NCBI GenBank assembly: GCA_030704615.1
Contig: CM060734.1
Span: forward strand, 38,378,001 to 38,442,000
Source of the DNA: Takakia lepidozioides
Taxonomy: Eukaryota; Plantae; Bryophyta
Direction of reading: 5' to 3'
Length of the DNA stretch: 64,000 nucleotides
Shown here: piece by piece, positions 2,196 to 47,400 of the stretch
Layout of the letters: each line of letters starts with the position of its first letter
Position numbering within the stretch: the stretch's first letter is position 1
The notes under the pieces: generated by a model
What the model saw: only the letters and a program-made list of their open reading frames with translations
What the model was told of the DNA's origin: nothing
Databases searched by the model: none
Translations under genes and position numbers: made by a program

Positions 2196-2655
2196 GGCAT
2201 ATATACATAGATACTAGGCTGTTCGCGTTGCTCTGCACTACTAGCAACGAATTCTGAGAACTACGTTCAATTTTCACAAAAAAGGGGTGAGTCATCCCCA
2301 CTGTGTTACATGCAGAGATCCCGTGTTTTATTCAATGTTCAATTTTCACAAGCTGCATCAATCAATGACAACATACCCCAATACCCTTACATTCACTATA
2401 TGAACTTTTCAAGCATCCACCGTGGGATTGGATCTTGGTGGGTTAAGGCTAGCTTTTGACAATATTCATGCAAGTTCGTCAAGGGCTCCATCCAAAGCTA
2501 CACCACGAGACACAACAAACATGTCCAAATTTAAGATGCTGAACAAACTTGTGCACAAGCCTGCCCCTCTCATCAAGCTCATTAAATTCGTATTCACTTC
2601 CATCTTGAAGCTTTGGAGAAGCTCCACCACCCAAACCCAGAATTAGGACATCACT

Positions 2656-4348
2656 CTATTTACCAAGCACGGGTGTGGTAGGAATGCTTTGGAGACCTAT
2701 AAGCAAATGCTGCACGAAAGGGTGAAGCCCAACCACATCACATTTGTTTGTGTTTACAATGCGTGTGCAAGCCGGGGAGCTCTGGAAAAGGGGAAAGAGG
2801 TTCATGGTGACATCGTCAAAGCTAGAATTGTACCAGATGTCATTCTGCAAATTGCTCTGGTGGACATGTATGCCAAATGTGGGTGCATTAAGGATGTGAA
2901 GGGAGTTTTCAACACTATGGCTGAACAAGATGTGGTGCCATTGGACGCGATGCTTCCAGGGTATGCACAGCAAGAACGTGGTATGGAGGCTTTGAAGACT
3001 TATGAACAAATGATAGGAGAAGGGGTGAAGCCCGACCACATCACATTTGGGTGGGTTTGCAATGCTTGTGCAAGACTGTCAGCTCTGGAAAGGGGCAAAG
3101 AAGTCCATGGCGACATCTTCAGAGCTGGAATTGTACCAACTGTCATTCTGAACAATACCCTGGTGGACATGGGGTCATTGCAAGGTATGCACAGCAGGGA
3201 CGTGCTTTGGAGACCTATGAGCAAATGATGTGCAACGGGGTGAAGCCCGACCACATCACGTTTGTGTGCGTTTGCAGTGCGTGTGCAAGCCTGACAGCCC
3301 TGGAAAAGGGCGAAGAGGTGCATGGCGACATCGTCAGAGCTGGAATTGTACCAGATGTGATCCGAACTCTTCCCCTGGGGACATGTTGCCAAATGGGGTG
3401 CATGGAGGATGCAAAGGGAGTGTTCGACAATATGGCTGAATGAGATGTGGCGTCGTGGAATGCAATGATCGCAAGATATGCACAACATGGTTGTCATAGG
3501 GAGGTCCTGCAACTATTTGAAGGAATGCAAAAGAACGGCTTGAAGCAGTATGTGTTCTCTCTGCATGCATCCACACTGGCCTTTTGAATGAAGGTAGACG
3601 CTACTTCGATTCCCTGATTTAAGATCATGGTGTCACTCCGATAGTATAACACTTTGGCTGCATGGTGGACCTTCTTGGACGTGCGGGACAATTGGATGAG
3701 GCAGTGGACCTGATTAATAAAATGCCAATCAATCCAGATGTTGTGGTGTGGAAGGCCTTGTTTAGTGCCGTAGAATCCATGACAATGTAAGATGGCTCAA
3801 CGTGCGGCAACATCTATCCTCAAGTGGGATGAACAGGATGTCACGACTTTGTTGCTATCAAACATCTATGCTGCAGCTGGCATGTGGGTTTGATACTGTA
3901 AAGGTGAAAGAATGATGAAGGTCAGAGGGTTGAAAAAGAGCCGGCTCGCTCCTGCGTTGAGGTTTGCAACAGGGTGCACACCTTCGTTGTAGATGACAAG
4001 TTGCATCTAGAATAGGAAATCCAATGCTGAGCTGAGAAGATTGGTCTGGGAAGATGAAGGAAGCGGGTATGTGCCTGACAACGCTTTTTGTATTGCATGA
4101 TGTGGGGAGGAGGAAAAGAAATTTTCTCTTTGCCACCACAGTGAGAAGCTAGCCATTGGTTTTGGGCTGATCAGCATGACCCCTAGACGGCCTCTCCGTC
4201 TCATCAAGAATCTTCGAGTGTTGTTGTTGACTGCCACACCTCCACCAAATTCATCTCAAAGATTGTTGGCCGAGCACTTGTTATACGGGACGCTAACCGC
4301 TTTCACCACTTTGAAGATGGGATTTGTTCTTGTGGTGATTACTGGTGA
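2656..4348 (+). pseudogene. PLS-class PPR-E-DYW (C-to-U RNA editing factor) pseudogene, 5' truncated
   Basis: Repeated P-L-S motifs (VKPDHITF..CA...ALEKGKEVH, ALVDMYAKCG, DVVSWNAMI). E domain ([13 protein letters not shown]), PG-box-like KKEP..S.VEV..RVHTF, HSEKLA, KNLRV..DCH, and [16 protein letters not shown] ending 4348. Many frameshifts and stops. Confidence 0.93.
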
Positions 4349-6078: not shown

Positions 6079-6763
6079 AAGGACGGATCATTACGCATGT
6101 GTGTCGACTATCGCGGTCTCAACAAAGTCACAATCAAGAATCGTTATCCGTTGCCGCTGATTTCTGGGCTTCTCAACCAGCTGGGACGAGCAAAGATTTT
6201 CAGCAAAATCAACTTGAGATGAGCTTATAACCTTGTACAGATAAAAGAAGGAGACGAATGGAAAATAGCTTTTCGAGCAAGGTATGGACATTTTGAATAC
6301 AGTGTTATGCCTTTCGGTCTTACAAATGCTCCAGCAATTTTCCAACATATGATGAATGACATCTTTCGAGAATTTTTAGATGACTTTGTAGTCATCTATT
6401 TGGACGACATTTTGATATTTTCACAGAATGAAGAAAAACATGGCCGCCATGTACGCCTTGTCCTTGATAAATTAAGAGAAAAATGACTATATGCCAAGTT
6501 GGAGAAATGTCTTTTCCATCAATCTAAGGTCGAATTTCTGGGCTACATTATTTCCGACAAATGCGTCTTTATGGATCAGAAGAAAATACAGACCATCATC
6601 GAGTGGATTAAACCAACTTCGGTCCGAGATGTACAATGTTTTCTGGGCTTTGCAAATTTCTATAGAATCTTCATCAATAATTACTCCAAAATTGTTGCAC
6701 CATTGACACGACTCACAGGGAAGAGAAGGCTGAACAGGCATTTACAACGGCTCCTATACTGGT
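6079..6763 (+). pseudogene. Chromovirus reverse transcriptase (partial)
   Basis: [56 protein letters not shown], ending FTTAPILV. Confidence 0.93.
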
Positions 6764-7182
6764 CAGCGTAGCTACGGCGTGAGCCCAGCCCCGTGAGCCT
6801 GGGAGCTGAGCTCACGTTCAAGCTTTGAAGCGTGAGCTGAGCTCACGCTTCAGGGAAGCGTGAGCGGCATGAATCTGCTGGAGAAGCAGGTCCTATAGGC
6901 GAGGATTGCAGGAAGAGGGCCTATTACCGTGGACAAAACAAAGGAGGCCACCATGCACCATGTCTGCAATGCGTGCCAAAAAAGAGGAATATGTAAACAT
7001 GTCAGATTTGAGCTCAGAATGATTGACACAGTTTATTTCAATTCACAGAGAGACGCTTACAATGAATCGCAAGTGCATTTGCCCTCACAAGTGAACGAAA
7101 TGTATATGTTTGTCATAAAATGAAAAGTCTTCACACGGCAACCTGGAAACCAGCATGGGAAGCGGGCATGGCTCGTATGTGT

Positions 7183-10100
7183 TCAAAGAGAAGTTGGCGG
7201 AGCTCTACGCGAGGTGTCCCGCTGCAGAAGGGTGATGACTTCTCCGTAGCCTAGTGTGGCTTGGTGAATGAATTGGTCTCTCTTACCGTCGCAACACATA
7301 ATTACAAGGTATATGTAATATTGATGCTTGCAGGGGACCCACTTCCCTCTCATGCGAGAGCGCCCTCACGCATCGTTACAAAATCCGGACAAGTGCACGA
7401 TGGGAAATTCCCAATGGTAACTTGATATTCTTTGGCATGAAGAACTGAGCCAATTGACAGCACTGTGTAAATCCGTCCATACCCCGGGGAAGGGACTTCG
7501 GTGATACGAGCCACCGTAGCCTGCAAAATTCTAGCCGATTCCATCTTGCATTCGTGATCTGCACCCGAAGCAACACGGCGCACTGTTTTTCCATCTCTTT
7601 TTGTTGGGTGGGAGTTGGCACCGGGTGGAGGCATTGTCGGAGCATGTGGCACATCTGTGCCGACAGTGCATAAGGGCACCACCCGGGACCGTGCAAGACA
7701 AAACCCTCCCTCCTCCAGCATGCTTATCTCGGTTGAGGACAGCGATGTCCCAATTTGCACAGGCCAAATTGCGGGGGAGGGGGCTTCATTATCACGGAAG
7801 GACGAACTGTTCCCTTCACGCATCGTGCCATATCGTCTGGGCAGAACCAAAACTTGTGCTCTTTTGACTCCCCACTATGATAAGGTCGGAACAACCCTGT
7901 GAATGTTGGAGCTGGAGTCCCCCTGGAGCCTTTGCATATTTTTGATTTGCATTTCTTGAAAAGAGGGGTCCGAATTGCCATGCAAGCCACTCTAGATCCT
8001 GGTGGGGTGCGTTCTATATGCCAGTCACTATCAATGCAATCAGATTCCTGCACCATGGCCACCACCTCCTCCAATGGGATTTCCGCTGCTATGCTTGCAT
8101 GTTCCGCACCTGCTCCACAGGAGGAGGACCCACCTGGGAAGGGGCCGGCACAGGACTTAGTCTGCACTGGAGACACCTTTGGCACAGAGAAATTGACCCT
8201 GTCTGGCCTATGGGAATCTCCATCTGACCCTGGAAGAGTGTTTAATTTCCTTTTGCATGATCCAAATCTTTCCTCGCCTTCCAAATGGGGGAGCCTGGAT
8301 TGCAGAGGGGAACCTTCAGTGCACCTGTTTAGAGCTCTGGCCATCTTTGACGGGTCTCCGGACCTACTCGCAGCCCTTAGCATCAACAAAGTCGAATCGG
8401 GGCCCTTCCCTCCACCCCGTCCCATCAGAAAAAACCCGGTACCTGGTTTGTTGTGTAAGTGCCCGCACCATGTCATCAGCAGTGGCCACATACAAGTCAC
8501 GACCTGCTTTGGTAGACTGTTGCATCCAGGCGTTGTGAACAGTCTCTGCCAAATTACACGATGGCATGTCGGCCAAGTCCTCCAAGGACATGTCCTGCAG
8601 GAGGCATTGCATGGAAATGTGAGGAAGGAAAAGAAATGGTAGAGGTTATTCAAGTGACAATCGAACAACCCCAAATGAACAGGCACGATGCAAAGTGCAA
8701 TTTGTGTTTAAGGAAAACTTGTGAGGCTTACCGTCGTCATGAAAGCTCCCCACTGTCTGTACCTGAAGTGCCAGAAAACCAACCAGTCCTCCAACTCCTT
8801 CAGGTGGATACCTGTAGCAGCACCAGCGGAGAACCACCAAGCCCGGATTGCCTGGTAAGTGCTCTCTGCTTCTCCCATTGAGGTGGCATTCTTGTACTTC
8901 AGACAGAGCCTTCTATGCTCCAACTGAAGGTCAGGGCGAATGCAGCGCTTTGTATGACGTGCCAGAGATTGACTCCAATGGAAGAGGCATGTGCGCTCCC
9001 TATTTTCCATGGGGACCTTAGGATCCCCAGAACCAAACACGCGCCGCACTGCATTGAAATTTGCCTGTGCACTATCAGCCATGAAGCCCGCAAAGTTTGT
9101 GTTCTGTATTCCATTGCGCTGCATGACGGTCAGGAGGGATTCCACATGAGCATCTGGGATTCAGTGTCCTCCGACTGCATATCACAAATTGCTATGGAGA
9201 GCACACGCTGGTACGCTGGATCATACACATGGCACGCCATGGTTGTCCAACCCTTCACCCGTTTGCAGTGATCAAACATTAACCAACATTTAGCCAAATC
9301 TCCTCCAGGTTGCATTCGGCGGACAATGCTCACACCCTGCCTTGGCCCACAGCGGACATCTTGAACAAATACACTTTGGACGAGCCCTGGCCAGGGAACA
9401 TACTGTTTTGAATGAATTCATAGCGACTCCTCCGTTTGAGGTCCATAATGTTGTCCATGAATCCAGCAGTGCCTGTGCCCATTCTGAGTGCATTCACCTG
9501 GTTTCGAATATTGGGAGAGCTCAACACGGAGAAATGGTCCATGACTGCCTCAAGGGAATCTGCATCCAGCATTGGCTGTGTCGAATCCCCTTCACCCAGT
9601 ATGTGTTTTTCCAGGAATGCCTTGCTAGCTGCAAGCGCTATAGCAGAAGGTGTTGCAGAAGGGGCATTATGGAACTCTTGCTTCAGTAGATTTCTAGCGA
9701 TGTCCACGCTATCCCTGCAACTCCCTTTGGACACAGGATGCTCGTGTGCACCCATATGAATGCAGGCACGAGTCATTGTCTTGCATCGATGTGCCACCTG
9801 ATACATACGAGCGTGGCAAACAGAAACACAGGACGGGGAAAGTTTGCAGAACCTGCACACAAAAGTATTGGTATTGGGAGGTGCAAGCCCTGGGGTGAAA
9901 GGATTCAGGGGCACACCTTCCCACTCACTTTCGTTTGGCTGAGCGCTGTTTCTCAGCCGAGGGCAAGAAATATTCAGGCACTTGCAATGCCCAACGCAAA
10001 CCGACCTCCGAAATTTCAAGCCAATGTCGTTATGGATGTTCGAAGTTTTTGTCCTGCACCAAGGATGTCCGTCATGTTTCTTGTCCATGCCCTGCAGAAG

Positions 10101-10749
10101 CCCAGCCAGTCCACTGGAAGACGTGGGAGGGTTGAGCTCAAACAAGATGTCCCCATCAAACTGAGCTGGCACGTATTGAACACGTTGCACTGGAAGGGAC
10201 TCCCAATCAACAAAACGTAGCTCGCTTGCACCCAGGCACACCTGCGAGGGCTTTCAATTTTGGAATGACACTTGTTATCTCGCGCAATTCGTCATCATCC
10301 AATAAGGGAGTTTGCACTGGCGGAGGAATCTCAGAAACATCCTCCGAGGACGAGTCCGAAAGAGTAACGAAGGTAGTGGATGTGCTCACCTCTTGTTTCA
10401 CAGGAACTGTGCCCTTCTGTTGCACGACCGATGCTGCAGTGCCAGGGGTAACGACTGATCCTGCTGATTGTCTTCTCTCTTTTCCAAGGACACGGTATGT
10501 TCCTGGAAGGACTCTCCACTTCCTTCCACACTCGCCAACCAAGGGTTTCTCCAAGTGCCCAGAATCCAAATTCCCATCCTCGTCATACACCTCTTTCTGA
10601 ACAAGCAGAGAACCCAACTCCAGCGGGAACACTGTAACCAGCTCATCCTCATGAACAACTGCATACCCATCGTCGTCTGCAGTGGCAGTCAGTGGAAGAG
10701 TACCTGCATTGGAATGGAATCGAGCGAGTGCATCTCGCTCCCTCGACAT
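7183..10749 (-). pseudogene. MULE transposase: GCM/WRKY-like DNA-binding domain + DDE core + Cys-rich segment + SWIM; one intron (~8615-8730)
   Basis: DGHPWCRTK..C.GH.KC...HMGAHEHP; LMFDHCKR, FMADSAQANFNAV, CLFHW, NLAETVH; CTCPDF..PCKH. A few frameshifts and stops. Confidence 0.88.
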
Positions 10750-11551
10750 GTTTTCCAGCACTGAACGAAACTGCCGATGCAGAACGGAATCCCCGAACTG
10801 AGAGCCCGTAATTATCGAAAGTGGAAATACCACCAGCAAACTGAGGTCAACAAGGGTAGCACCAAACCCAAGGCTGCCGGCGATGCATGCCAAGGATGTA
10901 GGGATGACGTGCACATTCACCTCCCACCAACCAGAAAAACGGTTTTGAAAGACCAGAGCCACAAGAAGCCGTACTGTTTTTGGATGGAAAACAAACCCTG
11001 AAATTGACATGAAACCATCCATTATGAAATGACGGCAACAACCCTGGAGAGCAGTAAAACAGGAAGATCCGATTGTAATGAGATTGTGTTGCGCCAGAAT
11101 AGCACAGAACAAACACCGACACTTCAAGAGATACCTCGCACGAATGTGTGCAACACATGGTCATATCCGACACAATCCTTTATACCGAATGACCCCGGGG
11201 TCACGGTCACGGCATAAAAAAAAACCACAGGGCATGCAGCACAACACACGTGGATGCATATGTGAAGCATAACAATTATTGCGAATCTGGAAGAACTGCT
11301 CGGAATTGAAAAAGCACTACATTTCTACGGCGCATTCGAATTTGAAAGAAGGCAAGGAGGCCGCCATGTATTGGCAGGCGGCGAAGCACATCTGACATAT
11401 ATCGCAAATGCATGCAACGGATATTCTTTTTCTTCGGCGCTTTATTAGCTGGGTAATACAAAGACGACAAAATGGATGAATTCCGTTCGCACACAATATC
11501 AACACCCGCATCCAAATACGGTTGACAACGTCATTTTTATTTTTGTTACTC

Positions 11552-14500
11552 ATGGTAAAACTTGTTGCAAACGTCAAACTGGAGAGCTCCAGGGGCATCG
11601 TGGGGAGCCCTTGTTTCCAGCGGAGGAGAAAGAGAAGGAAGTCATTATACTTCACGAGTTCTAGAAACAGGAATAGAGCTAGATATAGAATGAGGATGGA
11701 AAGAGTGGAGGAAGAGGAAAAGGAGGAAGAAGAGGAATACAGGAAAGTGTGGCGATGGAGGAGCAGGAATCTGGAGAAGAACAACAACCCACCATAGTTC
11801 CAGGAACAGGCGAGGAGGACACTGCGTCTGAGGGAGAGACAGACGACATGGAGGAAGATGTTGACACTGGCCTCACGAACGATCTGACCACGGGAAAGAG
11901 GAAGGGGGAGAGGCTCACCTACATAGTCGGCGAAGAGAGCAGCCCCAAGCGGAAAGCGTCCCCGGCAACTGGGGAGTCTTCTCGAGTAGCTACGAAAAAG
12001 GTAAAATCCACACGACCCATATTTGTGAAGAATTCGGCTTTGAATGGCAGGTATTTTGTGAAAGAAAGAACCATTGGTCTTGCAAAATTTGGTCTTGATG
12101 TCTGTTATGTGAGGGTGAAAACGAACCCTTCACTGCCAGCCCAGACAGTGTGCGGCAACGCACACTGTTTGAGCTGAGCATTTCAATGTTTCTGGGTGCA
12201 AAATTTGGACTTCAGGGGCACCTGTGTGAGTGTGAAAAGAACCCTTCACTGCCAGCCCAGACAGTGTGCGGCAACGCACACTGTTTGAGCTGAGCATTTC
12301 AATGTTTATGGGTGCAAAATTTGGACTTCAGGGGGCACCTGTCTGTGAGTGTGAAATGAACCCTTCACTGCCAGCTCAGAAGTGTGCGGCAACGCACACT
12401 GTTTGAGCTGGGCATTTCGGTGTTTTCTGGGTGCAAAAATTTGGTCTTTGCTGTCTGTTATCTGAGGTTGAAATGAACCCTTCAAACCAGCTCAAACAGC
12501 GTGCGGCAACGCACAATGTTTGAGCAGACCTTTTCAATGTTTTAGGGTTCAAAATTTTGGTCTTGATGTCTGTTAGTGTGAAATGAACCCTTCACTGCCA
12601 GCCAGACAGTGTGCGGCAACGCACACTTTTGAGCTGAGCATTTCAATGTTTCTGGATGCAAAATTTGGACTTCAGGGGCACCTGTGTGTGAGTGTGAAAA
12701 GAACCCTTCACTGCCAGCTCATACAGTGTGCGGCAACGCACACTGTTTGAGCTGAGCATTTCAATGTTTCTGGGTGAAATATTTGGACTTCAGGGGCACC
12801 TGTGTGATGTGAAAAGAACCCTTCACTGCCAGCTCAGACAGTGTGCGGCAACGCACACTGTTTGAGCTGAGCATTTCAATGTTTCTGGGTGAAATATTTG
12901 GACTTCAGGGGCACCTGGGTGAGTGTGAAAAGAAACCCTTCACTGCCAGCCAACAGTGTGCGGCAACGCACACTGTTTGAGCTGGAGCATTTCAATGTTT
13001 CTGGTGAAAATTTGGACTTCAGGGGCACCTGTGTGAGTGAAAAGAACCCTTCACTGCAGCTCAGACAGTGTGCGGCAACGCACACTGTTTGAGCTGAGCA
13101 TTAAAAATTTGGACTTCAGGGGCACCTGTGTGAGTGTGAAAAGAACCCTTCACTGCCAGCCCAGACAGTGTGCGGCAACGCACACTGTTTGAGCTGAGCA
13201 TTTCAATGTTTCTGGGTGCAAAATTTGGACTTCAGGGCACCTGTGTGAGTGTGAAATGAACCCTTCACTGCCAGCTCAGACAGTGTGCGGCAACGCACAC
13301 TGTTTGAGCTGAGCATTTCAATGTTTCTGGTGAAAAATTTGGACTTCAGGGGCACCTGTGTGAGTGTGAAATGAACCCTTCACTGCCAGCTCAGACAGTG
13401 TGCGGCAACGCACACTGTTTGAGCTGAGCATTTCAATGTTTCTGGGTGAAATTTGGACTTCAGGGCACCTGTGTGAGTGTGAAAGAACCCTTCACTGCCA
13501 GCCCAGACAGTGTGCGGCAACGCACACTGTTTGAGCTGAGCATTTCAATGTTTCTGGGTGCAAATTTGGACTTCAGGGCACCTGTGTGAGTGTGAAATGA
13601 ACCCTTCACTGCAGCTCAGACAGTGTGCGGCAACGCACACTGTTTGAGCTGAGGGTGAAAATTTGGACTTCAGGGGCACCTGTGTGAGTGTGAAAAGAAC
13701 CCTTCACTGCCAGCTCAGACAGTGTGCGGCAACGCACTGTTTGAGCTGAGCATTTCAATGTTTGGGTGAAAATTTGGACTTCAGGGGCACCTGTGTGAGT
13801 GTGAAAAGAACCTTCACTGCCAGCCCAGACAGTGTGCGGCAACGCACACTGTTTGAGCTGAGCATTTCAATGTTTCTGGATGCAAAATTGGACTTCAGGG
13901 GCACCTGTGTGAGTGTGAAATGAACCCTTCACTGCCAGCTGCACACTGTTTGAGCTGAGCATTTCAATGTTTCTGGGTGCAAAATTTGGACTTCAGGGCA
14001 CCTGTGTGAGTGTGAAATGAACCCTTCACTGCCAGCTCAGACAGTGTGCGGCAACGCACACTGTTTGAGCTGAGCATTTCAATGTTTCTGGGTGAAATTT
14101 TGGACTTCAGGGGCACCTGTGTGAGTGTGAAAAGAACCCTTCACTGCCAGAGACAGTGTGCGGCAACGCACACTGTTTGAGCTGAGCATTTCAATGTTTC
14201 TGGGTGCAAAATTTGGACTGGGGCACCTGTGTGAGTGTGAAATGAACCCTTCACTGCCAGCTCAGACAGTGTGCGGCAACGCACACTGTTTGAGCTGAGC
14301 ATTTCAAATGTTTCTGGTGCAAATTTGGACTTCAGGGGCACCTGTGTGAGTGTGAAATGAACCCTTCACTGCCAGCTGTGTGCGCAACGCACACTGTTTG
14401 AGCTGAGCATTTCAATGTTTCTGGGTGAAAATTTGGACTTCAGGGGCTGAAAAGAACGCCAGCTCAGGACAGTGTGCGGCAACGCACACTGTTTGAGCTG

Positions 14501-17500
14501 AGCATTTCAATGTTTCTGGGTGCAAATTTGGACTTCATGGGCACCCGTGTGAGGGTGAAATGAACCCTTCACTGCCAGCCCAACAGTGTGCGGCAACGCA
14601 CACTGTTTGAGCTGAGCATTTCAATTGGGTGCAAAATTTGGACTTCATGGGCACATTTTTGAGTATAAAATGAACCCTTCACTGTCAGCTCAAACAGTCT
14701 GCGGAACCGCACACTGTGTAGGCAGAACATATGAATATGGAAGGGCGCAACTTTCGGCCCTCATGGGCAGATATTTGAGCAGAACTTTTCAATGTTCTTT
14801 CCCTGTGTAAATCGGGAACATAGTGCATGTCCGTGAGGATCAATGAACACTTATCTGGCAGCTCAAAGAACACTTATCCCCCACTTTTTCATGCATCGGT
14901 CGACGTTTCATTCCTCTCTCTTATAAGAATTTGAGTGAACAACCTTGCAGGGGAAAATGCAAAGTGTGGCGGATGAGGTCCCTCAGGGTCAGGGGAAGGA
15001 GACCAAAGATGATGTTGACGATGAGTTTTGAAAGCAAAGCCGCTGAGATGCTGGGGGTCAAAAGGTGAACTCTCAGCTTGTGGTTCAAAGTATGCTTGCT
15101 CCTGGTGGGAGGTTGAAGATTCCCCTGTGTAGGTTGGTTTCCATGCCCGTCGTTCGTCCACCCCTTGTCAAAGACATTCTCAAGCTGGAGGCCGAGTTTG
15201 TTCATGGGTATTTGGATGATCCGCGGTCTTTTACGTTTCTACTAGGGATTCAAGAGGTAACGAGCTCCTTGTTGATGAGTCAATCGTCGACTCCTGGGAC
15301 CCCATTTGGAGACAGGTGAACGAATCCTTCGAACTTCTTCTCTCCAGAAAACCTTCCACCCAGGTATTCTCGGGGAAGATGTTTCACGTTTGGGATGGCA
15401 ACCACCGGTTGCTTGCATGGATGGCTGTCATTGGGAGGCTGCACTCACAGGAGGAAGAGTGGCATTACTCTGTTCGATCGATGGTGCTTGATTGTGACGA
15501 CAACATGATGGGTCTTCTGACGGCAATGAATGATGTGAACAGGTTGGTTTCTCATTGTACACGTTGCACTTCTGGTTCCGTTCTTCCTTGATTGAAGTCC
15601 TTGAATTACATTCTGAAATTCAGATATCATTCTGCAGAGGGACGGAGACATCGCATGTCAAAACGAGTCTGGTTCACACACTGTATAGGATACAAAGGAT
15701 CGGGCAGATGCCCTTGACCAACTTCAAGACCATCCTTTCGGCAGAGATGTATAAGAAATGCGAAAGCTCCAAGACTTCGGAAACATGGTACTCGTTGACC
15801 CGTGAGGCTTTCATGGAGTACATGTACACGGTGAGATACATCTTCCTTCATCTGGCCTTTCCATATTCCTGCTTCCACATGTTTGTTTCTCTCTGTCTCC
15901 CTTGACCTTGGATTGATGCAACTCTCTTGCATTCCCTTGCAGCAAGACATTGCAGATGCAGGGGAGCGTGGCAAACTGGAATACTACAGCTCTACCCCTG
16001 AGGAGAGAAGGACAGCAAAGGGGTTGAAAGTCACATCCAGAAGGAGATGAACGCTACAAGAAGGACAATAATGAGTGCTTTTTGAAGCAGTTGAGAATGG
16101 CCGACCCATCATTCGGGCCGCAGTTTCTGGGAGAAAAAAACCATTATAACAAGCCAGGCAAGCCGGAGATGGCCCAGGAGAAGTTGCACAGGTTGTCTAC
16201 CGCCGTCGTGTCTTCTGAACAGAAGGTGAAGTGGCTGCAGATATGGAACTCCGATCCCACAGTTAGGGATACCCCACATGTTCCAAGGCCAGAGAAGGAG
16301 AGAAAGACCCAGCGTGTCGTTCCTGTCAGTGACAATGTGCTGGACAACTGGCTTCACAAGGCCACTTACTGGAGCCAGGTGTGATGTCCTCTCGTATCTC
16401 ACTTTCTTTTCTCTTTTCCTGTCCTTCTCTTCCCATTGCCTCTTACATTCGCTGTGACTGTTTTTGGGTTCATTCTTCCATTTCAATTTTTTTGCAGTTG
16501 GAAGAAAGGGCCCGATCGGTTCTGCATACTCAGCTGGCTGACTATGGCATCACTATGACAGCTCCGAAGGTCTCCTTCGAAGCATACATGAGGAAATGGA
16601 GAGCCACAGTGTGGCACTCTGGTTTCTTTAGAGAGTTCAGCAAGGAGGGTGGCATCAGTCGAACAAATGAGCTTGACCAGCAGGAAAAAGGAGAGGAAGC
16701 CTGGAAACGATGCCTTTACAGGTGCACACCCTTGCACTCTTTGCTTGTGTTGTGGTTGCAATGTGTGTGTGTGGCATACTGTTTAAGGGGGTCTTCCTGG
16801 TGTGTTGAAAAAGCTGGGACACAATATGTGCATTGGATAATGAGGCTGTGTCTGTTCTGCAGGTACATTAAGTTTGTTCTCCTGGAAGAGAATTGCTTGG
16901 ACAAACATCCAGATTTCGTGGACCTTTGGCTTGTCCCTGCTGGCAACCAGACCATGTTCACTGCTGGGATCTTGCATGACTGGGGTCCGGACCATCTTTC
17001 TTCTTGTGGTTGGTATTTGGATTGCCCTCCTTCAGAGACCCCAGCTGTAGAGTTGTCTTTGAGGAGAGAGAATGACCGTATTGCAGCCACTGCCGCAGCA
17101 GCGGACCTCGACATTCATGAGCGTAATCTGAGGACTCTTGCAGAGAAGGAGCCTCCGCTCAGGATACCCGGGTAGAGGAAGAAAGGCAAAGGGAAAAGAT
17201 GTTGCTGGTGGTGTTGTGGGGACGGGAAGGGGTAGGGAAGGTGGCACAAGGGCAGGGAAGTGTTGCAGCTATTGGCCCTGTGGAGCATGTCCAGCAGACT
17301 CCACCGCATGGTAGGGGATCCGGGAGAAAAAACAAGGGGTGGTTGATCCCAAGGACCCGTACCATGCAGTGGAACATCCCACGAGGGTCATTCGTCCAAC
17401 CAGGTTGGAGATTGCCAACGTCGGGTTCCTTGCCATGATGGAGTCGAAGAAATCTGATTACAAGGGCGAGCCATCACCAGTGTGGGAGAGGATTGTCGAG

Positions 17501-18652
17501 TTCCTCAGCACGGTGCGTGTTCTCTTTGGGTTCTGTGGCTTCTGCTCTCTTTGTCTGCTGTGGGCATGGATCGTTTATAAACTTGTCAGAATTCCATTGT
17601 ATTTTTGTTTGCAGGCTAAAATGACCAAATCGTGGTGAACGGGAAGGAGAAGCCATATGCAGCGGAACTCATCATCTTGGACATCCCTGATGGGTTGGCA
17701 GTCCCGGATATCCCACCATCGGGTGCTTGTCCGGGTTGGAATGCATTTGATGAGCGCTACTGGCGGTGGGTTTTTTCCTTTTGCAACTTCTTCCTTTCCG
17801 ATGCAGGTGTTTTGGTTCTCATCCAGTCCATCGATGTTCGGTGTCGCCGTGCCCTTGCCAGCTATTTGAAAGCCTCGGGCATGAGAGTCGTGAAGACATG
17901 GAATTGTGTGAACAGCATGTACCTTACGAAGGGGGATCGTCCGGGAGAGATGGTGAGTTTCCCTTCTTTTTCCTCTTCTTTTTTGTTCTGGGATTGTGTT
18001 GTGTAGGTCGCTCAAACTCATATGTAGGGGCCCGATTTTTTTTGGTTCTTAGTTCCTTGTGGATGTCATGTTCGCAGACTCGTCTGTTTGAAGCTGTTTG
18101 TCTCGTCCGGGTGCATCCACCAACGACTCCGGCCGGCATTACGGAGTTTGCCATCACTCACGGGGCAAGTTCATAGATGACAGGACAGATCCTCCCACGG
18201 ATGACATGCATCACAACTACGTCGACAGCAACGTGTGCTTGCGAAGGGGGAATGGGGTTCCTTGGAGAGGGGCGAGGGAGGAGCCCCGGCTTTCATTCAA
18301 ACGATTGTGGAGTGCTGCACCTACACAGACGCCAGAGTTCTGGATTTGTCGATGGGCACAGGTTCGTCCCTTCAACATTCACATTTCATGAGGATTGAGC
18401 TTGCACTTTGCAACTTTTTGTTCGAATGTGTGTCTGCTTACTTCATTCTATTCCGCAGGTGCTTCGTACCACGCTTGCAAGGCCAGTGCGACATGTCTTT
18501 GGGATTGAAGGGGATGCTGAGATTTACAAGAAACCTCCTGATGGGTTTGGGTGGACACACTTCTCAGGTCCTTCCGAAGCCCCCGTCCCGCTGATACTGG
18601 TACAGAGGAGACTTCTGACAAGGAGCTGGACTCCGACTTTGCCTGTGAGTAA
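11552..18652 (+). pseudogene. Multi-exon ParB/Srx-like + beta-class amino (N4C/N6A) DNA methyltransferase fusion gene
   Basis: Exon 1 is basic then acidic (11552-12000, donor AAG|GTAAAA; acceptor TTGCAG at 14950). VWDGNHRLLAW at ~15388-15420, IILDIPDG at 17671-17694, then WRGAREx..FIQTIVECCT..ARVLDLSMGTG|ASYHACKASARHVFGIEGD. GT-AG introns are shared with the paralogs. The 3' end DFACE* is tentative. Confidence 0.78.
12080..14730. repeat. Tandem array of ~24 x ~116-bp units, each with an ~18-bp-stem palindrome, in intron 1 of the ParB-MTase gene
   Basis: Each unit contains CAGCTCAGACAGTGTGCG-GCAA-CGCACACTGTTTGAGCTG. Copies counted by eye. Confidence 0.95.
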
Positions 18653-19442
18653 GTTGAACCTGTGCATGCTTGCATTGTTGTTTTTCATTATCGAGAATCG
18701 CTGTTCTTGAGGCAAAGTGCAAATGGGAGACATCCTCTTCGTTGGACTTGTGCATTGCATCATTGTGTTAAAAATGGAATTTTGTGGACATGTGTAGGAG
18801 TCCGCGTGCTTCCACTTGCCCTCCTGGGCTATCACACCTATTTGGACTTGTTTTCAGTCCTCCTCGGTCTTGTGTGCTACCTGTCTATGCGGGGCACTCG
18901 CAGCAAGCATGTCCGTTCATGGCACTCAGAGTCCACCTTGCGATGGCCTTCGTAGAACACGTGGTGTTGGGGCCAGAATCTTTGTAGATGACATAGCACA
19001 GGAGGTGGACATTGATTGTGATGACTGCGACACTTGATATGAAGTATTCTTTTGGTTTAATTCTGGGACAAATTTGAAATGGGATGGTTGTGTGTCCTTA
19101 TTGTCCTCTTTGCAATGTGTGCATGGAATTCACATTCATGGTTCCAAACTATTGTTGGAGATGGGGTTGCATGGACTGCCCGGATTGTTCCTTCAATATA
19201 TTTTTGTTGTTTTGTGGACCTCACAGACTTGAGTACATTGCAAAAACAAACAAACCACTTTGTTCTTCAATTCTCAATTCTCCCCACATCAACCCGCGGA
19301 AATAGGTGACCCCACTCGGAAATAGGTGACATCCGCGGAAATAGGCACTGTTTGCATGCTGACGTGGCGTGAGCCTGTGCTGGGCTCACGCTTTCCTGGG
19401 CTCACAGGCTCACGCCTCCAGGCTCACGGAATAGCACCCCCC

Positions 19443-24007: not shown

Positions 24008-24576
24008 CACTAGAAGAAAAACGTGGAATAACCATTGGCCCTTTAACCACCACTGTCTTTTTCCACTCTATAAACCACTAGTAACCACTTGCCAGTGGTT
24101 AATCCCAATGAAATGCCACGGTGGCATCACAGACAGTGGTTGGAAGTGGTTTCAACCACTCAATAGTCCACGTGTAATAATTTGTTTTTATTTATTATTA
24201 TTTATTTGCTAATACATTTTAATTAATAAATATAATATTCCACGTGGACGAGTGCAGTGGTACGTTGTGAGTGGTTATAGATACCTCAGTGATGGGAAGT
24301 GGTTGAAACCGCTTGCTACTCCACGTGTAATAATTCAAATTTTTGTGATTTATTATTTGGAAATATATTTTAATTCATAAATATAATATTCCATGTGAAT
24401 GGGGACAATGCACGTTGATCTTGAGTGGTTAAAGACACCTCATTGATTTGTACCACTTTGACAGTGGTGGAGAGTGGGTGGTGAAAGATACTGCAGTAAT
24501 TGGAACCACTATGCTAGTGGTTGCTCATGAGTGGTTTGCCTACACAACAGTGATTGGTACCACTTTTTGGGTGATA

Positions 24577-25438
24577 CATGAGGCGTTTCTGGAGTACATG
24601 TATGCGGTAAGCCCGAGTCTGTACTCAGTTTACTTTTCGAATACATGTTTGTAGTCCCTTAGGTGCTAATCACTATTTGAATCAATGCAGCAAGAACTGG
24701 CAGAGGCAGCTGAGAAGGGAAAATCCGAATATTACCGCACTACACCAGAGGAACTAAGGACATCAAAGGGTGTGGAAACAGCAATAAAAAAGGAGTTTGA
24801 AATGCAAAGAACCAAATTGATGTCCGCCTTCGGAAAGCAGCTTAGAATAGTAGATCCTGGACTTGGTTCTAAGTTCCTTCAGATCAAATCTCACTATGAC
24901 AAGCATGTGCATCCGGAGATGCAGCAGGAGAAATTGCACCGACTGGCCATATCCATGGTCGACCCACAAACAAAAATAAGGTGGCTGGAGATATGGAACT
25001 CAGATCAGACAGTAAAGGACTTGAATCAGTTCCCAAAGAGCACCATACAGCCTGGCACAAAGGTGGAAGGAATCAGTGATTTGGTGTTTGATAATTGGCT
25101 CCACAAGGCTACATTTTGGAGTCAGGTGTGTATTCAAATAAGTCGTTTTTTTTTCTTCAATTATGTGATGAGTATCTTATTTGCAATACTGACAAATATA
25201 CAATTTGCAGCTCGAAAAGCGCGCCGTCATTGTGCTGGATCAGACTTTGAAGGACTTGAACATTTCAATTGTTTCCCCTCCCCAAATGTCATTGGAGGCA
25301 TACATAAGGAAGTGGAGAGGTCTCACCTGGAGATACTGTTTTTTCCTGGAGTTCTCCAAAGATGGTAACATTTTGCGGTCCAACGACTTTGACAGTCAGG
25401 TTGGAGGAGAGTGGGCCATGATGCGAGTTGTGTACAGG
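24577..25438 (+). pseudogene. Captured middle exons of a ParB-MTase gene
   Basis: EAFLEYMYA|, QELAEAAEKGKSEYY, EKLHRLA, NWLHKATFWSQ|, LEKRA..EAYIRKWR..VVYR|. Colinear with 15800-16722 and with the same intron positions. Confidence 0.88.
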
Positions 25439-25744
25439 TGCAATATCATACTGGAAACTTTACTGCACTTTTTGGGAAATAATTTGGCTTCATAAGGATT
25501 GTAATCATAGATCCAAATTGAATGTTGTTGACGACATTCACTTCTTTGTCTGAGTCATTCGTGGTTTGTGCAGCTGTGACAGACTTTGAAAAACAAGAAA
25601 GTGGTCAGACCATTGTGGGATGATGCTATTGAACAAATGGTTCCAACAATAAACTTTATTCTGAATCTGAAACATATTCGTCACCCTCTGAATCACTTTG
25701 CTCAACTGGAATAGCGGTTGGTTACACAAATGCCGCTTGAATGG

Positions 25745-40830: not shown

Positions 40831-41239
40831 CCTCTCTGCTTCTATTCAAAGGTAGGGTTCATGCCCTTAGTTTAAATTTCATGTTGTGCGCATACATATC
40901 GCTACACAACTACATCGCTGTCCAAAACCACACAACACATGTGCACGCCACACACTAGTATATCACTAGTCCAACCACTAGGCTACAACTAGTCAGTCAC
41001 TAGGCTGCCACTATGCTGCCCACTATGGCAGTCAGGGATGCCTCGGCGTGAGCCTGGTCACGTGAGCGCAACTGCGCTCACGCCACGTCACCTTGCGCCA
41101 ATGCCACATCACGGGGCTCACTCCACGTCATCACACTTGAAGACCGCGTCACCACGCGCCCAAGAAGAAGTGGAGTGTATTCCCGCGGATTGGCACCCTT
41201 TACCGCGGAAACAAGCTGGACGACATAATAAAAGGCATT

Positions 41240-41600
41240 GAATAAAGGATGGATGAATGTACAGTTGGATGATAAACATATGGATGAGTGTGAAAAATAA
41301 ATGTAGATGGATGAATGAGGGATGGATAAGAGTCAAATGGATGAATATATAATGGATGTTGAACAATGGAAAACATTCATGACAGGAAGATGCATGACTA
41401 AAACTTTAGACGAATGCACAACGTATATGACATGAGTGTGGTAGGTTTGTGGGGTGGATTAAAGAGTACAGAGGATGAATGTACAATGGATGTTGAACAA
41501 AGGAAAACATTCATGAATGGAGCACGCATGAATACATTGTAGATGAAAGCACAATGGATATGACAAGAGTGAGGGAGGTTTGTGAGATGGATTCATACAT
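41240..41600. repeat. Degenerate GGATGAAT-rich repeats
   Basis: Recurrent TGGATG/GATGAAT motifs plus a ~130-bp duplication. Confidence 0.55.
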
Positions 41601-42052
41601 ATTGCAATTTAAATGGTAGTTGATTCTTTGATTATTTTTCTTTCCAAAGGAACAACTACGGTGGAGGAAGGGGATTCAACGTTTTCCAAAGAGGATGAAA
41701 CAGAATATTAAAAGAACATAGTTCAGTCTGACTCAGAGTCAGTACAATGTATCCCCACTTCCTCTGCATCTAAGTCTAAGTATTTAAGAACTCCGGATCT
41801 ACGCTGGCTACACCTACGGCCGGGCAGTAAAAATTCAGGGGATAGGGACTCGGCCGCGTGAAGTGCCATTGCTTCGGCATAATCAGGAAGCAGAAAATTG
41901 GAAAGGGGGCTATCAAAAACAGACTCGCCACAAATGACTGTATCTCCTGAAGATCCACCACTGCCTTTCCTGAAAGACAGCCTGAAAAAGTTATTACTGT
42001 AACTTTGATGTTATTGAGAAATTGAGTATGACTCCCAAAGTGGGTTTAGCAC

Positions 42053-45000
42053 TTACTCACATGAAAAGTCGTTGTCAACCTGCTTATCTTCGGGATCGTC
42101 ATCATTTCGAATTTGAATCCGATCAGTCTGTGTGCCTGAAGTGGAGCCAGACAAAAGGGGGAGGAGCACTGTGTTGTAGAGGTCAGAATCACCCTCCATG
42201 CCAAAAAGGCTTCTTCCGTCTGCCTTGCATGCATGGTAAGTTGCTCCTGCACCAGACAGGAGGACATGAACAGTTTGGTGGGGGGGATTTAAGTGGATGG
42301 AACTGGTGAAAGAAAATCAATTTGGAAGGGAGAGAACGAACCTGTGGACACAAAAAGATCGACCACCCGTGCAGAGTGGTGGCTGCATGACTCCAACAGT
42401 ATTTGCATGAACGCTGGGATTTTTCCTTTGCACCTCTCCAGGGAGTGCCATCTGGTCTCTTCAAAGTCTGACTGGACTGCATGAAGTTGTACAAAATGTC
42501 TTCGACATGCGGCTCATAGGGGGGGTTGATGAAACAACCCTGGTCAGAAATCTCAAAGCTGTGGATGGAGGATGGTGTCTTTGAGGTGCGAATCCTCCGC
42601 AGGCAGATCGATTCAGAACTCAGGCACAAAACAATCATTTTTATCACGAATCGGTGATGATCGGTGTCGATCATGACAGATTTTTCTAGAGTGGAGCTGC
42701 AGAGAACATTGAAACTCATCATGAAAGCACAAGCAGAAGGGAGACGGCATACCAGCTGACCAAGGAAACCCCCTTTCACAAGGTAGAGGTTGTTCACACA
42801 ATTCCATGTGCGCAAAATTTCAAACCCTGAAGACTTCAGGTATGATGCCAATGCCCGACAACTATCTTTGTCACATGACTGAAAAAGCAGAAGTGTCCCT
42901 GCATCAGAGAGGAAACTATTACAGAACCCGAACACCCAACTCCAGTAGTTGTCCTCGAATTTGTTCCAGCCTGGCGTCTTGCCCTTTGGAAGAACTTCTG
43001 GCACAGCCTGGCCATCCGAGATGTCGAGAATGACAATGTCAGCCGCATATGTTTTTTGCACACCGCACACGAAGGTGGGACCTGTGCTCACCTGCAACAG
43101 ACATGTTTTTTTTAAGAACGATGGCAAGAATGTTTTCAAAGAACCAGACTGAAATACTGCCAATGAAACTTTCAGAGAAAAGGAAAGAAACTGGAATTCT
43201 CACCAGATTGAGGAATGAGATTATGTTGTCCCAGGTAGGCGAAGGCACCCCAGTGTATCCTCTCTTTCGACTCTGCATCATCGACATCCAACCCTCATTG
43301 ACAATTTTAATCTCTCCTGCCGAATCAGAACGGGAAGGGTGTGGCTTGGCATCGAACACGCACTGAACTGTGCGGGTATATCTTCCAGCAGTGAAGTCCT
43401 GCCCACTCTCCATCTCCTTTTCTTTCTCCTTCCCCTTGTCCTTTTCCTTCTCTTTGGACTTGTCTTTGTCCTTTGGCTTTGCTGGTGAGATGGCTATGAC
43501 ATCAAGAGCCTTGTCTTTTGGTTTGCGGCCCGCATTCTTTCCCTTCTGCGGCGTTCCCTGAGCATCAGGCTCCTTGGCAGCCAATGTTGCTATGTTTCTT
43601 TGGTACTCTTCATCAGTCAGAGGCGCCAGCATCTCAGCATTATTGTTCAAATATTTCATATGCTGTTCTTGAAAGGTCGTGTGCTCCGGTGGGCAGTCAA
43701 GGTACCAGCCACAGTCTCTGAAGTGAGAAGGACTCCAGTCCTTCAATATCCCTGCAGTATACATGGTTGGATCGTTTGAAGGGTCCGACCACATGTCAAG
43801 ATAGTCTGGAATACCGCTCAGGTGATTTCCTTCCATAAGCACATATTTCGTGTACCTGTTAAACAGGAGATAAATCCCAACCCACCAAAGCGCAAAGTGA
43901 GTAAGATGCAAGTAGCACATAATGAAAAAAACATGGAATGAAATGGCTCTGAGAACTGCTCCAAGGACCTTTCAGGACCACACGACAGCTCCGGATGTGA
44001 ATGTCGTCAACGCCATTCAAAACATTCCATTCAATGATACTGTAAATACACCCTAATCCACGTGAATGCAAACTCTCGCTTTGGAATGACACAGACATAG
44101 AAGTGAATGTCGTCAACGACATTCACTTTGGATTTGTGAATACACTGCTAATCAAGCCTAATGATTTATCAAAAGAGGCAAAATCATTAGATGGACATCA
44201 GAAACTCGACTAAGGAACCCTCCCCAAAAACTCAATGGACATTCATAACGAACATAACATTGAGGACCTCATAATAACACTGGATGTGAATGGCGTCAAC
44301 GCCATTCACAAAATTACGAACAAAGAACCAATTAATTAGCTCCCAATCCATGTAAATTCAAATTGTCGCTGGTGAATGACACAGACATAAAAGTGAATGT
44401 CGTCAACGACATTCACTTTGGATCTCTGATAACACAACTAATCAAGCCTCAAGATTTCTCGCAAGAGGCAAAAGCAATGCAGAACAACTGAATGTCTACA
44501 TTGACATTCAGCAAACTGAAGTGAGGAACCCTCACTGTAAACTCTATGGACATTACAAAAACTTGCAGCTCTTCCTGTTTCGCACTTCTTGATTATATTG
44601 GGGGGGAGTACTGTCCGAAAATCATCCAGCTTCATCAGACCAATCCTCTGAATTCGGAATAGTGTGTGGACCAAGCTTGTTGTCGCATGCGATTTCTCTG
44701 TCGATCTGCAAAAACATTGGAAACATTGCATTCTTTAACACTGTTTTTTTTGGATTAACAAGACACTACAGAGGGAATGAAATCTCTAGGATGACTTACT
44801 TGTTCACGTCGTGCATAGTTGTAAGAAGCCTAGCGATGTCGTTTCCTGGATCCAAAACCATTGCCTCCACAACAACATGCTTGTCTTTGTCTTTCGCATG
44901 GTGTTTCTGGATGTATCACATCCATGCCAGCAATCGGTGGTTGCCGTCCCAGACGTAGAACATGTGGTTGTAGAATTGCTGGGTGTTCTTTCCCATCATG

Positions 45001-46642: not shown

Positions 46643-47400
46643 TCTCCCTCTAAGCGCGAAAAGTAGAAAAACGAAGTGACTCCCGATATCTTGCGGGATT
46701 GCGTGCGTTGTTGCTTGTCTCTAGAAGCATCGGATTCCCTCTCGCGTGACCGTTACACATAGTCGTTCCCTTATTAGTGCACATGCCAGCAATTAGTGTA
46801 CAGCTGTTCGTATTCAGTTATCAATGTTTGACGTGTGTCGCCCAAAATAAATGGCGTGTTCTTTATTAGAACGGTTTCAATATTTAAAAATAACAGCGAA
46901 TCCAAGAAATCTTGGCGCACAGTCTTAGACAAATATATGTAAATGAACGAGAGTTTGATGACAAATTTTGGGATATCATACACGGTCATCCTTGTTAGCC
47001 AACCCCACGTTCCGTTTCACATTTTGAACTTTCCAGGTGCGCATGATCATTGGTAGTAGTATAAAGATACATTTACTTAATCTGCAATCCCACCCTCAGA
47101 TCCTGTGGCAAGCTTCCAGGAAGTCGGCTTGTTATTGTGTTTATTGATGAGGTTCTGATTAACGGTTTAACAGCTGCCGACATTGCTCCTAGGGATACTC
47201 TGACCACTGGGCCCACAAGAAAAGTAATTAAAATGGACGGCTGCATATCTGGAAAGAATAACAGAATATGCACAGTCGTCGTCTGAGCTTCCTCCGCCAT
47301 ATTCTCTGCTCATTCTTCAACTGTGTTATGGAGACATCAGTAAACCGATTTACACTGAAGGTCTGCGATAGCAAGGTATCAACGTACGCGAGGAAGGAAG

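What the first reader, a model, noticed from the sequence alone, without database searches (positions are those of the whole stretch)
12080..14730. Intronic array of ~24 long palindromes: candidate parS-like self-recognition sites
Seen: intron 1 (12001-14950) of the ParB-MTase gene is filled by ~116-bp units, each with an ~18-bp stem around a GCAA loop and one G-T mismatch. Established: ParB proteins load on palindromic parS sites, and the anti-silencing protein VANC of Arabidopsis VANDAL MULEs targets motifs amplified as tandem repeats in non-coding parts of the element. Inference: this is the cis-acting half of a protein/site self-recognition module. Alternatively, the GNRA loop and G-U pair would suit RNA hairpins from the excised intron.
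Basis: partly seen in the sequence, partly recalled or inferred. Interest (0 to 1): 0.85.

Follow-up and report, generated by a model that had tools for sequence, protein, structure and literature searches.

The report
Palindrome array in ParB-carrying plant transposon
A plant jumping gene carries 24 tandem copies of a 40-letter DNA palindrome inside an intron of its own ParB-like gene; related elements put palindromes with the same central CG-N4-CG spacing in the same place, so these are likely docking sites for the element's own protein, a design already proposed for algal transposons but untested.

Summary
24 units (~115 bp) fill a GT-AG intron (12001-14950) of a ParB-fold/amino-methyltransferase-like gene in a 12.7-kb Mutator-like transposon (11-bp target duplication); 22 of 24 keep the CG-N4-CG centre.

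The array is a local amplification; the palindrome is the conserved part. A second element in the window has no array but about 10 scattered intronic palindromes with the same geometry. In 53 non-redundant relatives, 43 such sites lie within 1.5 kb upstream of the ParB exon (shuffles: mean 1.1; other spacings: 0-7); 18 of 31 relatives with enough upstream sequence have one. Arms change with protein clade, the centre does not.

RNA is unlikely: mismatches show no strand bias (G-T 21, A-C 21) and loops differ. Best reading: double-stranded docking sites for the element's own ParB-like protein (0.6). Binding is untested, no helix-turn-helix match was found, and the methyltransferase motif is degenerate.

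The idea is in print for red-algal Plavaka (ParB gene beside inverted-repeat arrays) and Ectocarpus Sola (ParB-methyltransferase), and this scan found the design in other plant genomes. Added here: the conserved central geometry and DNA-level evidence.

The parts
6753..6763 (+). Left target-site duplication CCTATACTGGT (insertion into a gypsy pol region)
   Evidence: same 11-mer at 6753 and 19442
6764..19441 (.). Element 1: 12.7-kb Mutator-like (MULE) DNA transposon with imperfect ends rich in CGTGAGC repeats
   Evidence: (contigs joining 6805-6816 to 19358 are end-only derivatives)
7210..11160 (-). MULE-type transposase gene with C-terminal SWIM finger; frameshifts and stops in this copy
   Evidence: Transposase_mut E 0.13, SWIM E 0.03, both weak; element-2 homolog: ESM Atlas MULE clusters, score 0.94; 44-66% aa to element 2
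11689..12000 (+). Predicted exon 1 of the ParB-MTase-like gene (acidic stretch, basic KRK motifs); start uncertain
   Evidence: element 2 has a similar exon ending before its first intron
12001..14950 (+). Predicted intron 1 (GT...AG)
   Evidence: no RNA evidence
12074..14761 (+). Tandem array of 24 units of about 115 bp, each with a 40-bp palindrome centred on CG-GCAA-CG
13272..13311 (+). Representative palindrome: 18-bp arms, centre CG-GCAA-CG, one G-T mismatch
14951..15543 (+). ParB/Srx-fold exon (IPLCR...VVRP, WDGNHR, NDVN); frameshifted in this copy
   Evidence: (close homolog P0001: VIA Z 6.9 to PadC, 6.3 to KorB)
15639..17172 (+). Exons of the all-helical middle domain (candidate DNA-reading part; no fold match)
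17315..18560 (+). Exons of a beta-class N4/N6 methyltransferase-like domain (motif IV DIPD before motif I LSMGTG)
   Evidence: Riccia homologs hit PF01555 at E 5e-5 to 9e-6, just under the gathering score
19442..19452 (+). Right target-site duplication
41035..51513 (.). Element 2: related MULE of the same layout in opposite orientation; 12 identical bases flank it (41023, 51514)
45430..46237 (-). Element 2 intron 1: no tandem array; five scattered CG-N4-CG palindromes (about 45566, 45641, 45949, 46068, 46153)
43998..44419 (-). Element 2 later intron: four palindromes GTGAATG(T/G)CG-TTGA-CG(A/C)CATTCAC, one with a change on both arms; one more CG-N4-CG site at 42662
24570..25560 (+). Fragment of a third ParB-MTase-like gene with one element-2-type palindrome at 25519-25540

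Best explanation
The palindromes are a conserved feature of the introns of this transposon family's ParB-like gene and are likely double-stranded DNA docking sites for that gene's own protein, amplified to 24 tandem copies in this element. Shown: palindromes with a CG-N4-CG centre cluster in intron 1 and one later intron across many bryophyte-type relatives, with arms that follow the protein tree and no strand preference. Inferred: a dimer of the ParB-fold protein reads the two arms through its helical middle domain and, like ParB, KorB or VirB, would use its nucleotide-binding domain to load and spread along the element. The methyltransferase-fold tail has a degenerate catalytic motif and would more likely bind or flip bases than write a mark. 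The likely result is family-specific control of the element's own chromatin and expression: anti-silencing in the manner of VANC is my first guess, autorepression the second. Copy number is a by-product of tandem duplication and varies between copies.
For: Position: 43 sites in 53 kb upstream of the ParB exon in 53 non-redundant loci; 50 dinucleotide shuffles gave mean 1.14, max 5; the other ten spacer lengths gave 0-7 hits; other regions 2-9 hits. Peaks at -1500..0 and +2500..3000, near zero in the exon-rich part. Arms-only test: 39 of 102 palindromes in the intron-1 window against 4 of 121 in distant DNA have CG/TG/CA at both ends of the central eight bases; such dinucleotides sit at positions 1, 4, 7 (0.48, 0.53, 0.49) and not at 2, 3, 5, 6 (0.11 or less). 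In the 64-kb window all 6 strong sites outside the array lie in the two other elements of this kind. About eight arm types share the centre and group by ParB clade. Within the array the stem differs less than the spacer: 6 of 648 against 44 of 1210 positions in inner units, 14 of 158 against 60 of 297 in edge units (units are not independent). DNA not RNA: G-T 21 against A-C 21, central TG 16 against CA 17 in 52 sites. ParB/Srx fold: the eight matches with Z above 4 are all of that superfamily; GNHR and the upstream Arg are kept in 40-45 of 45 sequences. Precedent: inverted-repeat arrays beside a ParB accessory gene in a different transposon superfamily (bioRxiv 2025.02.11.637652, passages).
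Against: No binding or expression data. 13 of 31 loci with at least 1 kb upstream show no site at the strict threshold (many are CpG-decayed old copies). The 40-bp palindrome is much longer than the 16-bp parS (PMC8494293). ParB-fold Z scores are under 8 and Foldseek found nothing at E<=0.001. All loci were fetched with the ParB gene, so co-occurrence is built in, and arms following the tree is expected from descent alone. The motif definition was refined after looking at these loci (the arms-only test was added for that reason). The array's CpG o/e (0.32) is lower than the rest of the element (0.54-0.69 at ends and genes, 1.08 between the genes), and core CpGs are decayed in most loci L024-L080, so there is no sequence sign of lasting protection from methylation. 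Motif IV lacks the second proline in 20 of 20 named homologs and the aromatic residue in 19 of 20, which weakens the 'writes its own mark' version.
Confidence: 0.6

Rival explanations
1. The sites are bound by the MULE transposase (or a host factor), not by the ParB-like protein, and serve transposase-driven activation or autoregulation.
For: Every element complete enough to check also has a MULE-like transposase. A 2026 preprint states that transposases can activate cognate copies in a sequence-specific way (10.64898/2026.08.24.746577, start of abstract only). One terminal repeat of element 2 also fits CG-N4-CG (51426).
Against: The sites sit in introns of the ParB-like gene, kilobases from the ends, which have their own CGTGAGC repeats. 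Inverted-repeat arrays accompany a ParB gene in an EnSpm/Plavaka element with an unrelated transposase.
Confidence: 0.12
2. The palindromes act through DNA structure (cruciform or hairpin extrusion) that the element's protein or the host recognises by shape, with the CG-closed four-base loop as the read-out.
For: Arms of 10-18 bp are longer than one helix-turn-helix half-site; arm sequences turn over while pairing and the four-base spacer persist; both strands fold well as DNA; element 2 shows a change on both arms.
Against: Arm sequences are family-specific and repeated within an element, as expected of sequence-read sites; the third and sixth central bases often pair (26 of 52), so there is no fixed loop size; parS works as B-form DNA (PMC8494293).
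Confidence: 0.12
3. No function: an old palindrome (for example a small transposon relic) inherited in this intron and expanded by slippage or unequal exchange.
For: Copy number is labile: 24 here, none in tandem in element 2, and roughly 7-9 hairpins per element from summed contig depth (a poor measure). Inner units are 92-100% alike, a recent expansion. Hairpins can keep their own symmetry through repair.
Against: Neutral decay does not explain a fixed CG-N4-CG centre under about eight different arm sequences in proteins only 35-60% identical, in two separate introns.
Confidence: 0.1
4. The units work as RNA hairpins of the pre-mRNA or excised intron (GNRA loop, G-U pair; small-RNA source or splicing control).
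For: The sense strand folds more strongly than the antisense in this copy (-38.4 against -31.4 kcal/mol); all 24 units face one way; the loop is GCAA.
Against: No strand bias in 52 sites of relatives. Element 2 reads TTGA on its sense strand; other relatives read GTGC, GCAC, TTGG or CCAA in either orientation. The G is a variant of this copy and 6 of 22 units have a sense-strand C-A mismatch. No Rfam match near a gathering score. Small RNAs from such hairpins could still arise as a side effect.
Confidence: 0.05

Closest known systems
Plavaka (EnSpm) elements of the red alga Bostrychia moritziana, accessory gene PAG3 (bioRxiv 10.1101/2025.02.11.637652; passages read; figures and supplements not seen)
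   Same: DNA transposon with a ParB-like accessory gene and tandem arrays of inverted repeats beside it; the authors propose that the protein binds and modifies its own element. They note homologous accessory genes in Chondrus Mutator elements.
   Different: There ParB is joined to a putative 2OG oxygenase and the methylase is a separate gene (PAG2); arrays are described as adjacent to the gene. Here ParB and a methyltransferase fold are one protein, the carrier is a land-plant MULE, the sites are intronic, and a conserved central geometry is shown.
Sola1-1_Ec32 of Ectocarpus (PMC12477816; passages read; figures and supplements not seen)
   Same: A 1104-aa ParB-like plus N4C/N6A methyltransferase accessory protein on the strand opposite the transposase, proposed to bind and modify its own transposon.
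   Different: Sola-1 transposase in a brown alga; 'palindrom' does not occur in its main text; homology to the plant proteins was not tested here.
VANDAL/VANC of Arabidopsis (PMC5735166; passages read)
   Same: Mutator-type element, accessory protein, target motifs in introns and other non-coding parts, amplified as tandem repeats that differ between families.
   Different: VANC motifs are 8-9-base non-palindromic words ('palindrom' 0 hits); binding and demethylation are shown there, not here; no VANC family hit appeared in the Pfam scans.
Bacterial ParB/parS, KorB and VirB/virS (PMC8494293 passages; bioRxiv 2023.06.01.543266 abstract and outline)
   Same: ParB/Srx-fold N domain followed by a helical domain; palindromic cis sites; VirB is a ParB-type anti-silencer that loads at virS.
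   Different: No ParA; sites up to 40 bp rather than 16 bp; the box reads GNHR rather than GxRR (canonical motif recalled); helix-turn-helix not detected; C-terminal methyltransferase fold.
Chlorophyte-type Dam with N-terminal ParB-type HTH (PMC4738411; passages read)
   Same: Eukaryotic ParB-type plus amino-methyltransferase fusion.
   Different: That clade is placed in the M.EcoKI/M.TaqI-like group and in chlorophytes and chytrids; the protein here has beta-class motif order (PF01555-like). Homology not tested.

Membership tests
MuDR/Mutator (MULE) transposon | MULE-type DDE transposase, often with SWIM finger | tested here: met
   ESM Atlas MULE clusters at 0.94, ten of ten best family hits in one family or clan (element-2 homolog); weak Pfam Transposase_mut and SWIM
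MuDR/Mutator (MULE) transposon | 8-11-bp target-site duplication (range recalled) | tested here: met
   11 bp at element 1; 12 shared bases at element 2, so 11-12
MuDR/Mutator (MULE) transposon | Long terminal inverted repeats | tested here: inconclusive
   The ends share CGTGAGC repeats but are not clean mirror images; one search listed only the 25 longest of 466 pairs, all in the array
Algal ParB-accessory transposons (Plavaka PAG3, Sola1-1_Ec32) | ParB-like accessory gene on the element, opposite to the transposase | tested here: met
   (11 of 80 loci show the divergent transposase, 8 after merging near-identical ones)
Algal ParB-accessory transposons (Plavaka PAG3, Sola1-1_Ec32) | Arrays of inverted repeats at the ParB gene | tested here: met
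Algal ParB-accessory transposons (Plavaka PAG3, Sola1-1_Ec32) | Sequence homology to the algal proteins | not tested
   The algal sequences were not fetched; named homologs found were from Riccia and Adiantum
ParB/parS | ParB/Srx nucleotide-binding fold | tested here: met
   VIA Z 6.9, rmsd 3.5, 92 aligned (PadC); Z 6.3, rmsd 3.1, 90 aligned (KorB); model pLDDT 83 of homolog P0001; moderate scores
ParB/parS | Helix-turn-helix middle domain that reads parS | tested here: inconclusive
   Riccia homolog model (pLDDT 77.5) is all-helical, with three short helices right after the ParB domain; fold searches gave only generic helical hairpins
ParB/parS | 16-bp palindromic site | tested here: not met
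   Palindromic, but 40 bp here and about 26-40 bp in relatives
ParB/parS | CTP-dependent loading and sliding; ParA partner | not testable with these tools
   Needs biochemistry; no ParA-like gene was seen in either element
VANDAL/VANC | VANC-type protein | tested here: inconclusive
   No such Pfam hit among exon pieces or full-length homologs; no direct comparison with VANC was run
VANDAL/VANC | Family-specific motifs in non-coding parts, amplified in tandem | tested here: met
VANDAL/VANC | Protein-induced loss of DNA methylation | not testable with these tools
   No methylome; CpG o/e gives no support
Active beta-class N4C/N6A DNA methyltransferase | Catalytic motif (D/N/S)PP(Y/F/W) (recalled) | tested here: not met
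   DIPD in element 1; DLPT, DMPT, DMPS and similar in 20 named homologs, none with PP, one with an aromatic fourth residue
Structured RNA (GNRA hairpin or miRNA precursor) | Strand-specific pairing and conserved loop | tested here: not met

The most novel reading that the evidence does not exclude
Mutator elements of mosses, liverworts and ferns run a eukaryotic ParB/parS-type system: a nucleotide-gated clamp loads at family-specific intronic palindromes with a fixed CG-N4-CG centre, slides along the element and keeps host cytosine methylation off it (or writes N4C/N6A through an atypical active site), so that each family un-silences only itself and tunes this by amplifying sites.
Probability: 0.25. 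Interest if true: 0.85.

Novelty: new variant of a known kind. Interest (0 to 1): 0.52.

Why it matters
ParB-like accessory genes on algal transposons have been proposed to bind their own element, but in the passages I read no site was defined or tested. This family gives a concrete, testable site: a fixed CG-N4-CG centre with arms that differ by clade, and two protein/site pairs in one genome that serve as each other's specificity control. If binding holds, it would be a prokaryote-type clamp used for transposon self-regulation in land plants, convergent with VANC, and a possible source of orthogonal sequence-specific chromatin tools.

Tried and rejected
No whole genome is held for this window, so other copies were seen only as Logan contigs. 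Rfam: two weak miRNA-precursor matches far below gathering. Pfam on single exon pieces of the ParB-MTase gene: nothing. No relatives in viral or prokaryotic genome collections with the one peptide pattern used; a weak test, so the origin is open. Homolog search with the methyltransferase exon among longer proteins found none. No RNA holder listed; expression and splicing untested. Laying contigs on one unit to measure covariation was inconclusive: the table omitted a difference that must be common (12516), so missing rows at the CpGs were not used. Alignment A3 misplaced exon fragments and was not folded. Middle domain: no ESM Atlas hit, no PDB sequence hit, only generic helical matches. A search for a non-MULE transposase upstream of 18 loci (124 ORFs) found none, so the transposase rival stays open. 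Sola, named in earlier scan notes for other genomes, is rejected for this element (11-bp duplication, MULE-like protein). Rows dropped: 80 loci were reduced to 53 by keeping one per cluster at 95% identity over 800 bp; only the best 80 of 278 confirmed stretches were returned. Print searches that found no land-plant description or site geometry; the library lacks most subscription papers, including the 2011 review cited by the Ectocarpus paper, and bioRxiv supplements (Bostrychia Supplemental Fig. 13, Table 6) could not be seen and may describe the repeats.


Full report
Observation. The array is real. Splitting 12050-14900 at the unit start gives 24 units from 12074 to 14761, majority unit 116 bp. 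The palindrome has 18-bp arms around GCAA and folds far better than shuffles as RNA or DNA. 22 of 24 units keep a CG-N4-CG centre. The left-arm G that makes the G-T pair is in 17 of those 22; 4 have A (perfect pair), 1 has T, and 6 have an extra C-A mismatch. Inner units are 92-100% like the majority unit; units 1, 4 and 24 are 78-86%, the pattern of a recent expansion from older edge units. The intron ends GT (12001) and AG (14950) are present; no RNA run holds the stretch, so splicing is predicted. Single-base indels in the exons are absent from other contigs, so this copy is decayed or the assembly has errors.

Context. The array lies in a 12.7-kb element (6764-19441) inserted in a gypsy pol region with an 11-bp duplication. 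Contigs that join 6805-6816 to 19358 confirm the ends and show end-only derivatives; the family is very abundant in the host's runs. The minus strand encodes a MULE-type transposase (weak Pfam hits; ESM Atlas MULE clusters at 0.94 for the homolog in element 2). The plus strand encodes a spliced protein with three parts: a ParB/Srx-fold domain (model of a 62% identical homolog; all eight matches above Z 4 are ParB/Srx proteins, best Z 6.9; Foldseek ranked Noc, sulfiredoxin and ParB first but none at E<=0.001), an all-helical middle domain with no fold match, and a beta-class methyltransferase-like tail (PF01555 in Riccia homologs, just under threshold) with a degenerate motif IV. Named homologs come from Riccia sorocarpa (about 70 proteins) and Adiantum, annotated as hypothetical or by automatic names. 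That the host is a moss comes from earlier scan notes and was not tested.

Test inside the window. A second element of the same layout lies at 41035-51513 and a fragment at 24570-25560. Element 2 has no tandem array in intron 1 but five scattered palindromes there, four in a later intron and one more further on, all centred on CG-N4-CG with different arms. All 6 strong sites outside the array in the 64 kb fall in these two elements.

Test in relatives. The best 80 of 278 confirmed metagenome stretches were returned and reduced to 53. My first, narrow motif failed. Palindromes with arms matching at 8 of 10 positions or more and CG, TG or CA on both sides of a 4-base spacer number 43 in the 53 kb just upstream of the ParB exon; shuffles give 1.14 on average, at most 5; the other ten spacer lengths give 0-7; other regions give 2-9. 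18 of 31 loci with at least 1 kb upstream have one, 13 have two or more, 13 have none. Because the motif was refined on these data I also found palindromes by arms alone: 39 of 102 in the intron-1 window against 4 of 121 in distant DNA have the CpG-type ends (p about 1e-11, inflated by relatedness), and CpG-type dinucleotides are at central positions 1, 4 and 7 only. Sites peak at -1500..0 and +2500..3000. Several relatives have them in short tandem repeats of 51-136 bp (output partly cut). On a ParB tree of 55 sequences the arms group by clade, and element 1 falls with loci whose sites also read TGTG-CG-N4-CG-CA; this is expected from descent and does not prove co-evolution.

DNA or RNA. In 52 sites, arm mismatches that are wobble pairs on the sense strand (21) equal those that are wobble pairs only on the antisense strand (21), and the centre reads TG 16 times and CA 17 times. 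The loop is not GNRA in relatives. The RNA reading is therefore unlikely as the primary role.

Mechanism. Shown: a conserved, two-fold symmetric, intronic DNA site tied to this gene. Inferred: the gene's own protein binds it as a dimer; by analogy with ParB (16-bp parS, HTH read-out, CTP clamp; PMC8494293 passages) and the anti-silencer VirB (abstract) it would load and spread, and by analogy with VANC (PMC5735166 passages) the outcome would be family-specific anti-silencing, with autorepression as the alternative. Against or open: no HTH match, sites longer than parS, catalytic motif degenerate, array CpG o/e 0.32 against 0.48 and 0.94 in flanking gypsy DNA, core CpGs decayed in old copies. 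In favour of local protection only weakly: element 2's intron 1 has o/e 0.94 against 0.47-0.67 elsewhere in that element. Summed contig depth on the hairpin is about 7-8 times that on the spacer of one unit type, and about 7-9 times the element body in run X3, a rough hint that 24 copies is above the family mean; the tool warns that this is no copy number.

What is known. The Bostrychia preprint reports tandem arrays of inverted repeats beside ParB-like PAG3 genes of Plavaka elements and proposes self-binding (passages). The Ectocarpus paper reports a ParB plus N4C/N6A methyltransferase gene opposite the transposase in Sola1-1_Ec32 with the same proposal (passages). A 2026 preprint on adenine methyltransferases in retrotransposons does not mention ParB or Mutator (term search); the Marchantia DN4MT1 preprint describes TSPPY enzymes and does not mention ParB (passages). 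I found no land-plant description or site geometry. This scan has reported the same design in other plant genomes (AI notes, unchecked), which led me to the Ectocarpus paper; a word search for the CG-N4-CG centre found nothing.

Verdict. Observation confirmed; cis-site reading partly supported and now backed by comparative statistics; RNA reading not supported; new variant of a known, still untested kind. Interest 0.52.

Noticed in passing
window 41035-51513: Second ParB-MTase MULE (transposase about 66% nt to element 1), inserted in an LTR-like repeat; it lacks the exons equivalent to about 15940-16720 of element 1 and has in-frame stops. With element 1 it gives two protein/site pairs in one genome.
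   Followed up: yes
window 24570-25560: Isolated fragment of a third ParB-MTase-like gene holding the exons that element 2 lacks, next to a gag-like region; one element-2-type palindrome.
   Followed up: partly
window 6805-6816 joined to 19358 (Logan contigs): Short end-only (MITE-like) derivatives of element 1 exist in the host.
   Followed up: no
window 24080-24525: Several AACCAC/GTGGTT inverted repeats just upstream of the third fragment, possibly the end of another element.
   Followed up: no
window 19292-19345: Three copies of a 20-bp repeat (CCGCGGAAATAGG core) just inside the right end of element 1; element 2 has CCGCGG motifs at the equivalent end (about 41170-41205).
   Followed up: no
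window 12490-12525 (loose ends): Other family copies have the same hairpin next to different flanks, one resembling the region near 18835, so the site also occurs elsewhere in the element.
   Followed up: partly
L034 (2068 bp upstream and 2722 bp downstream of the ParB exon), also L059, L060, L065, L070: A different, odd-centred palindrome GGGAGTCAAACTG-N-CAGTTTGACTCCC recurs in these loci, probably from another abundant repeat.
   Followed up: no
P0158, P0160, P0161, P0168 (Riccia sorocarpa): UniRef names these ParB-methyltransferase-like proteins 'Trimethylguanosine synthase', likely an automatic misnomer; about 70 paralogs appeared in one search.
   Followed up: partly
window 37807-38465 and 39283-39928: Two-copy tandem duplications of 328 and 336 bp.
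   Followed up: no
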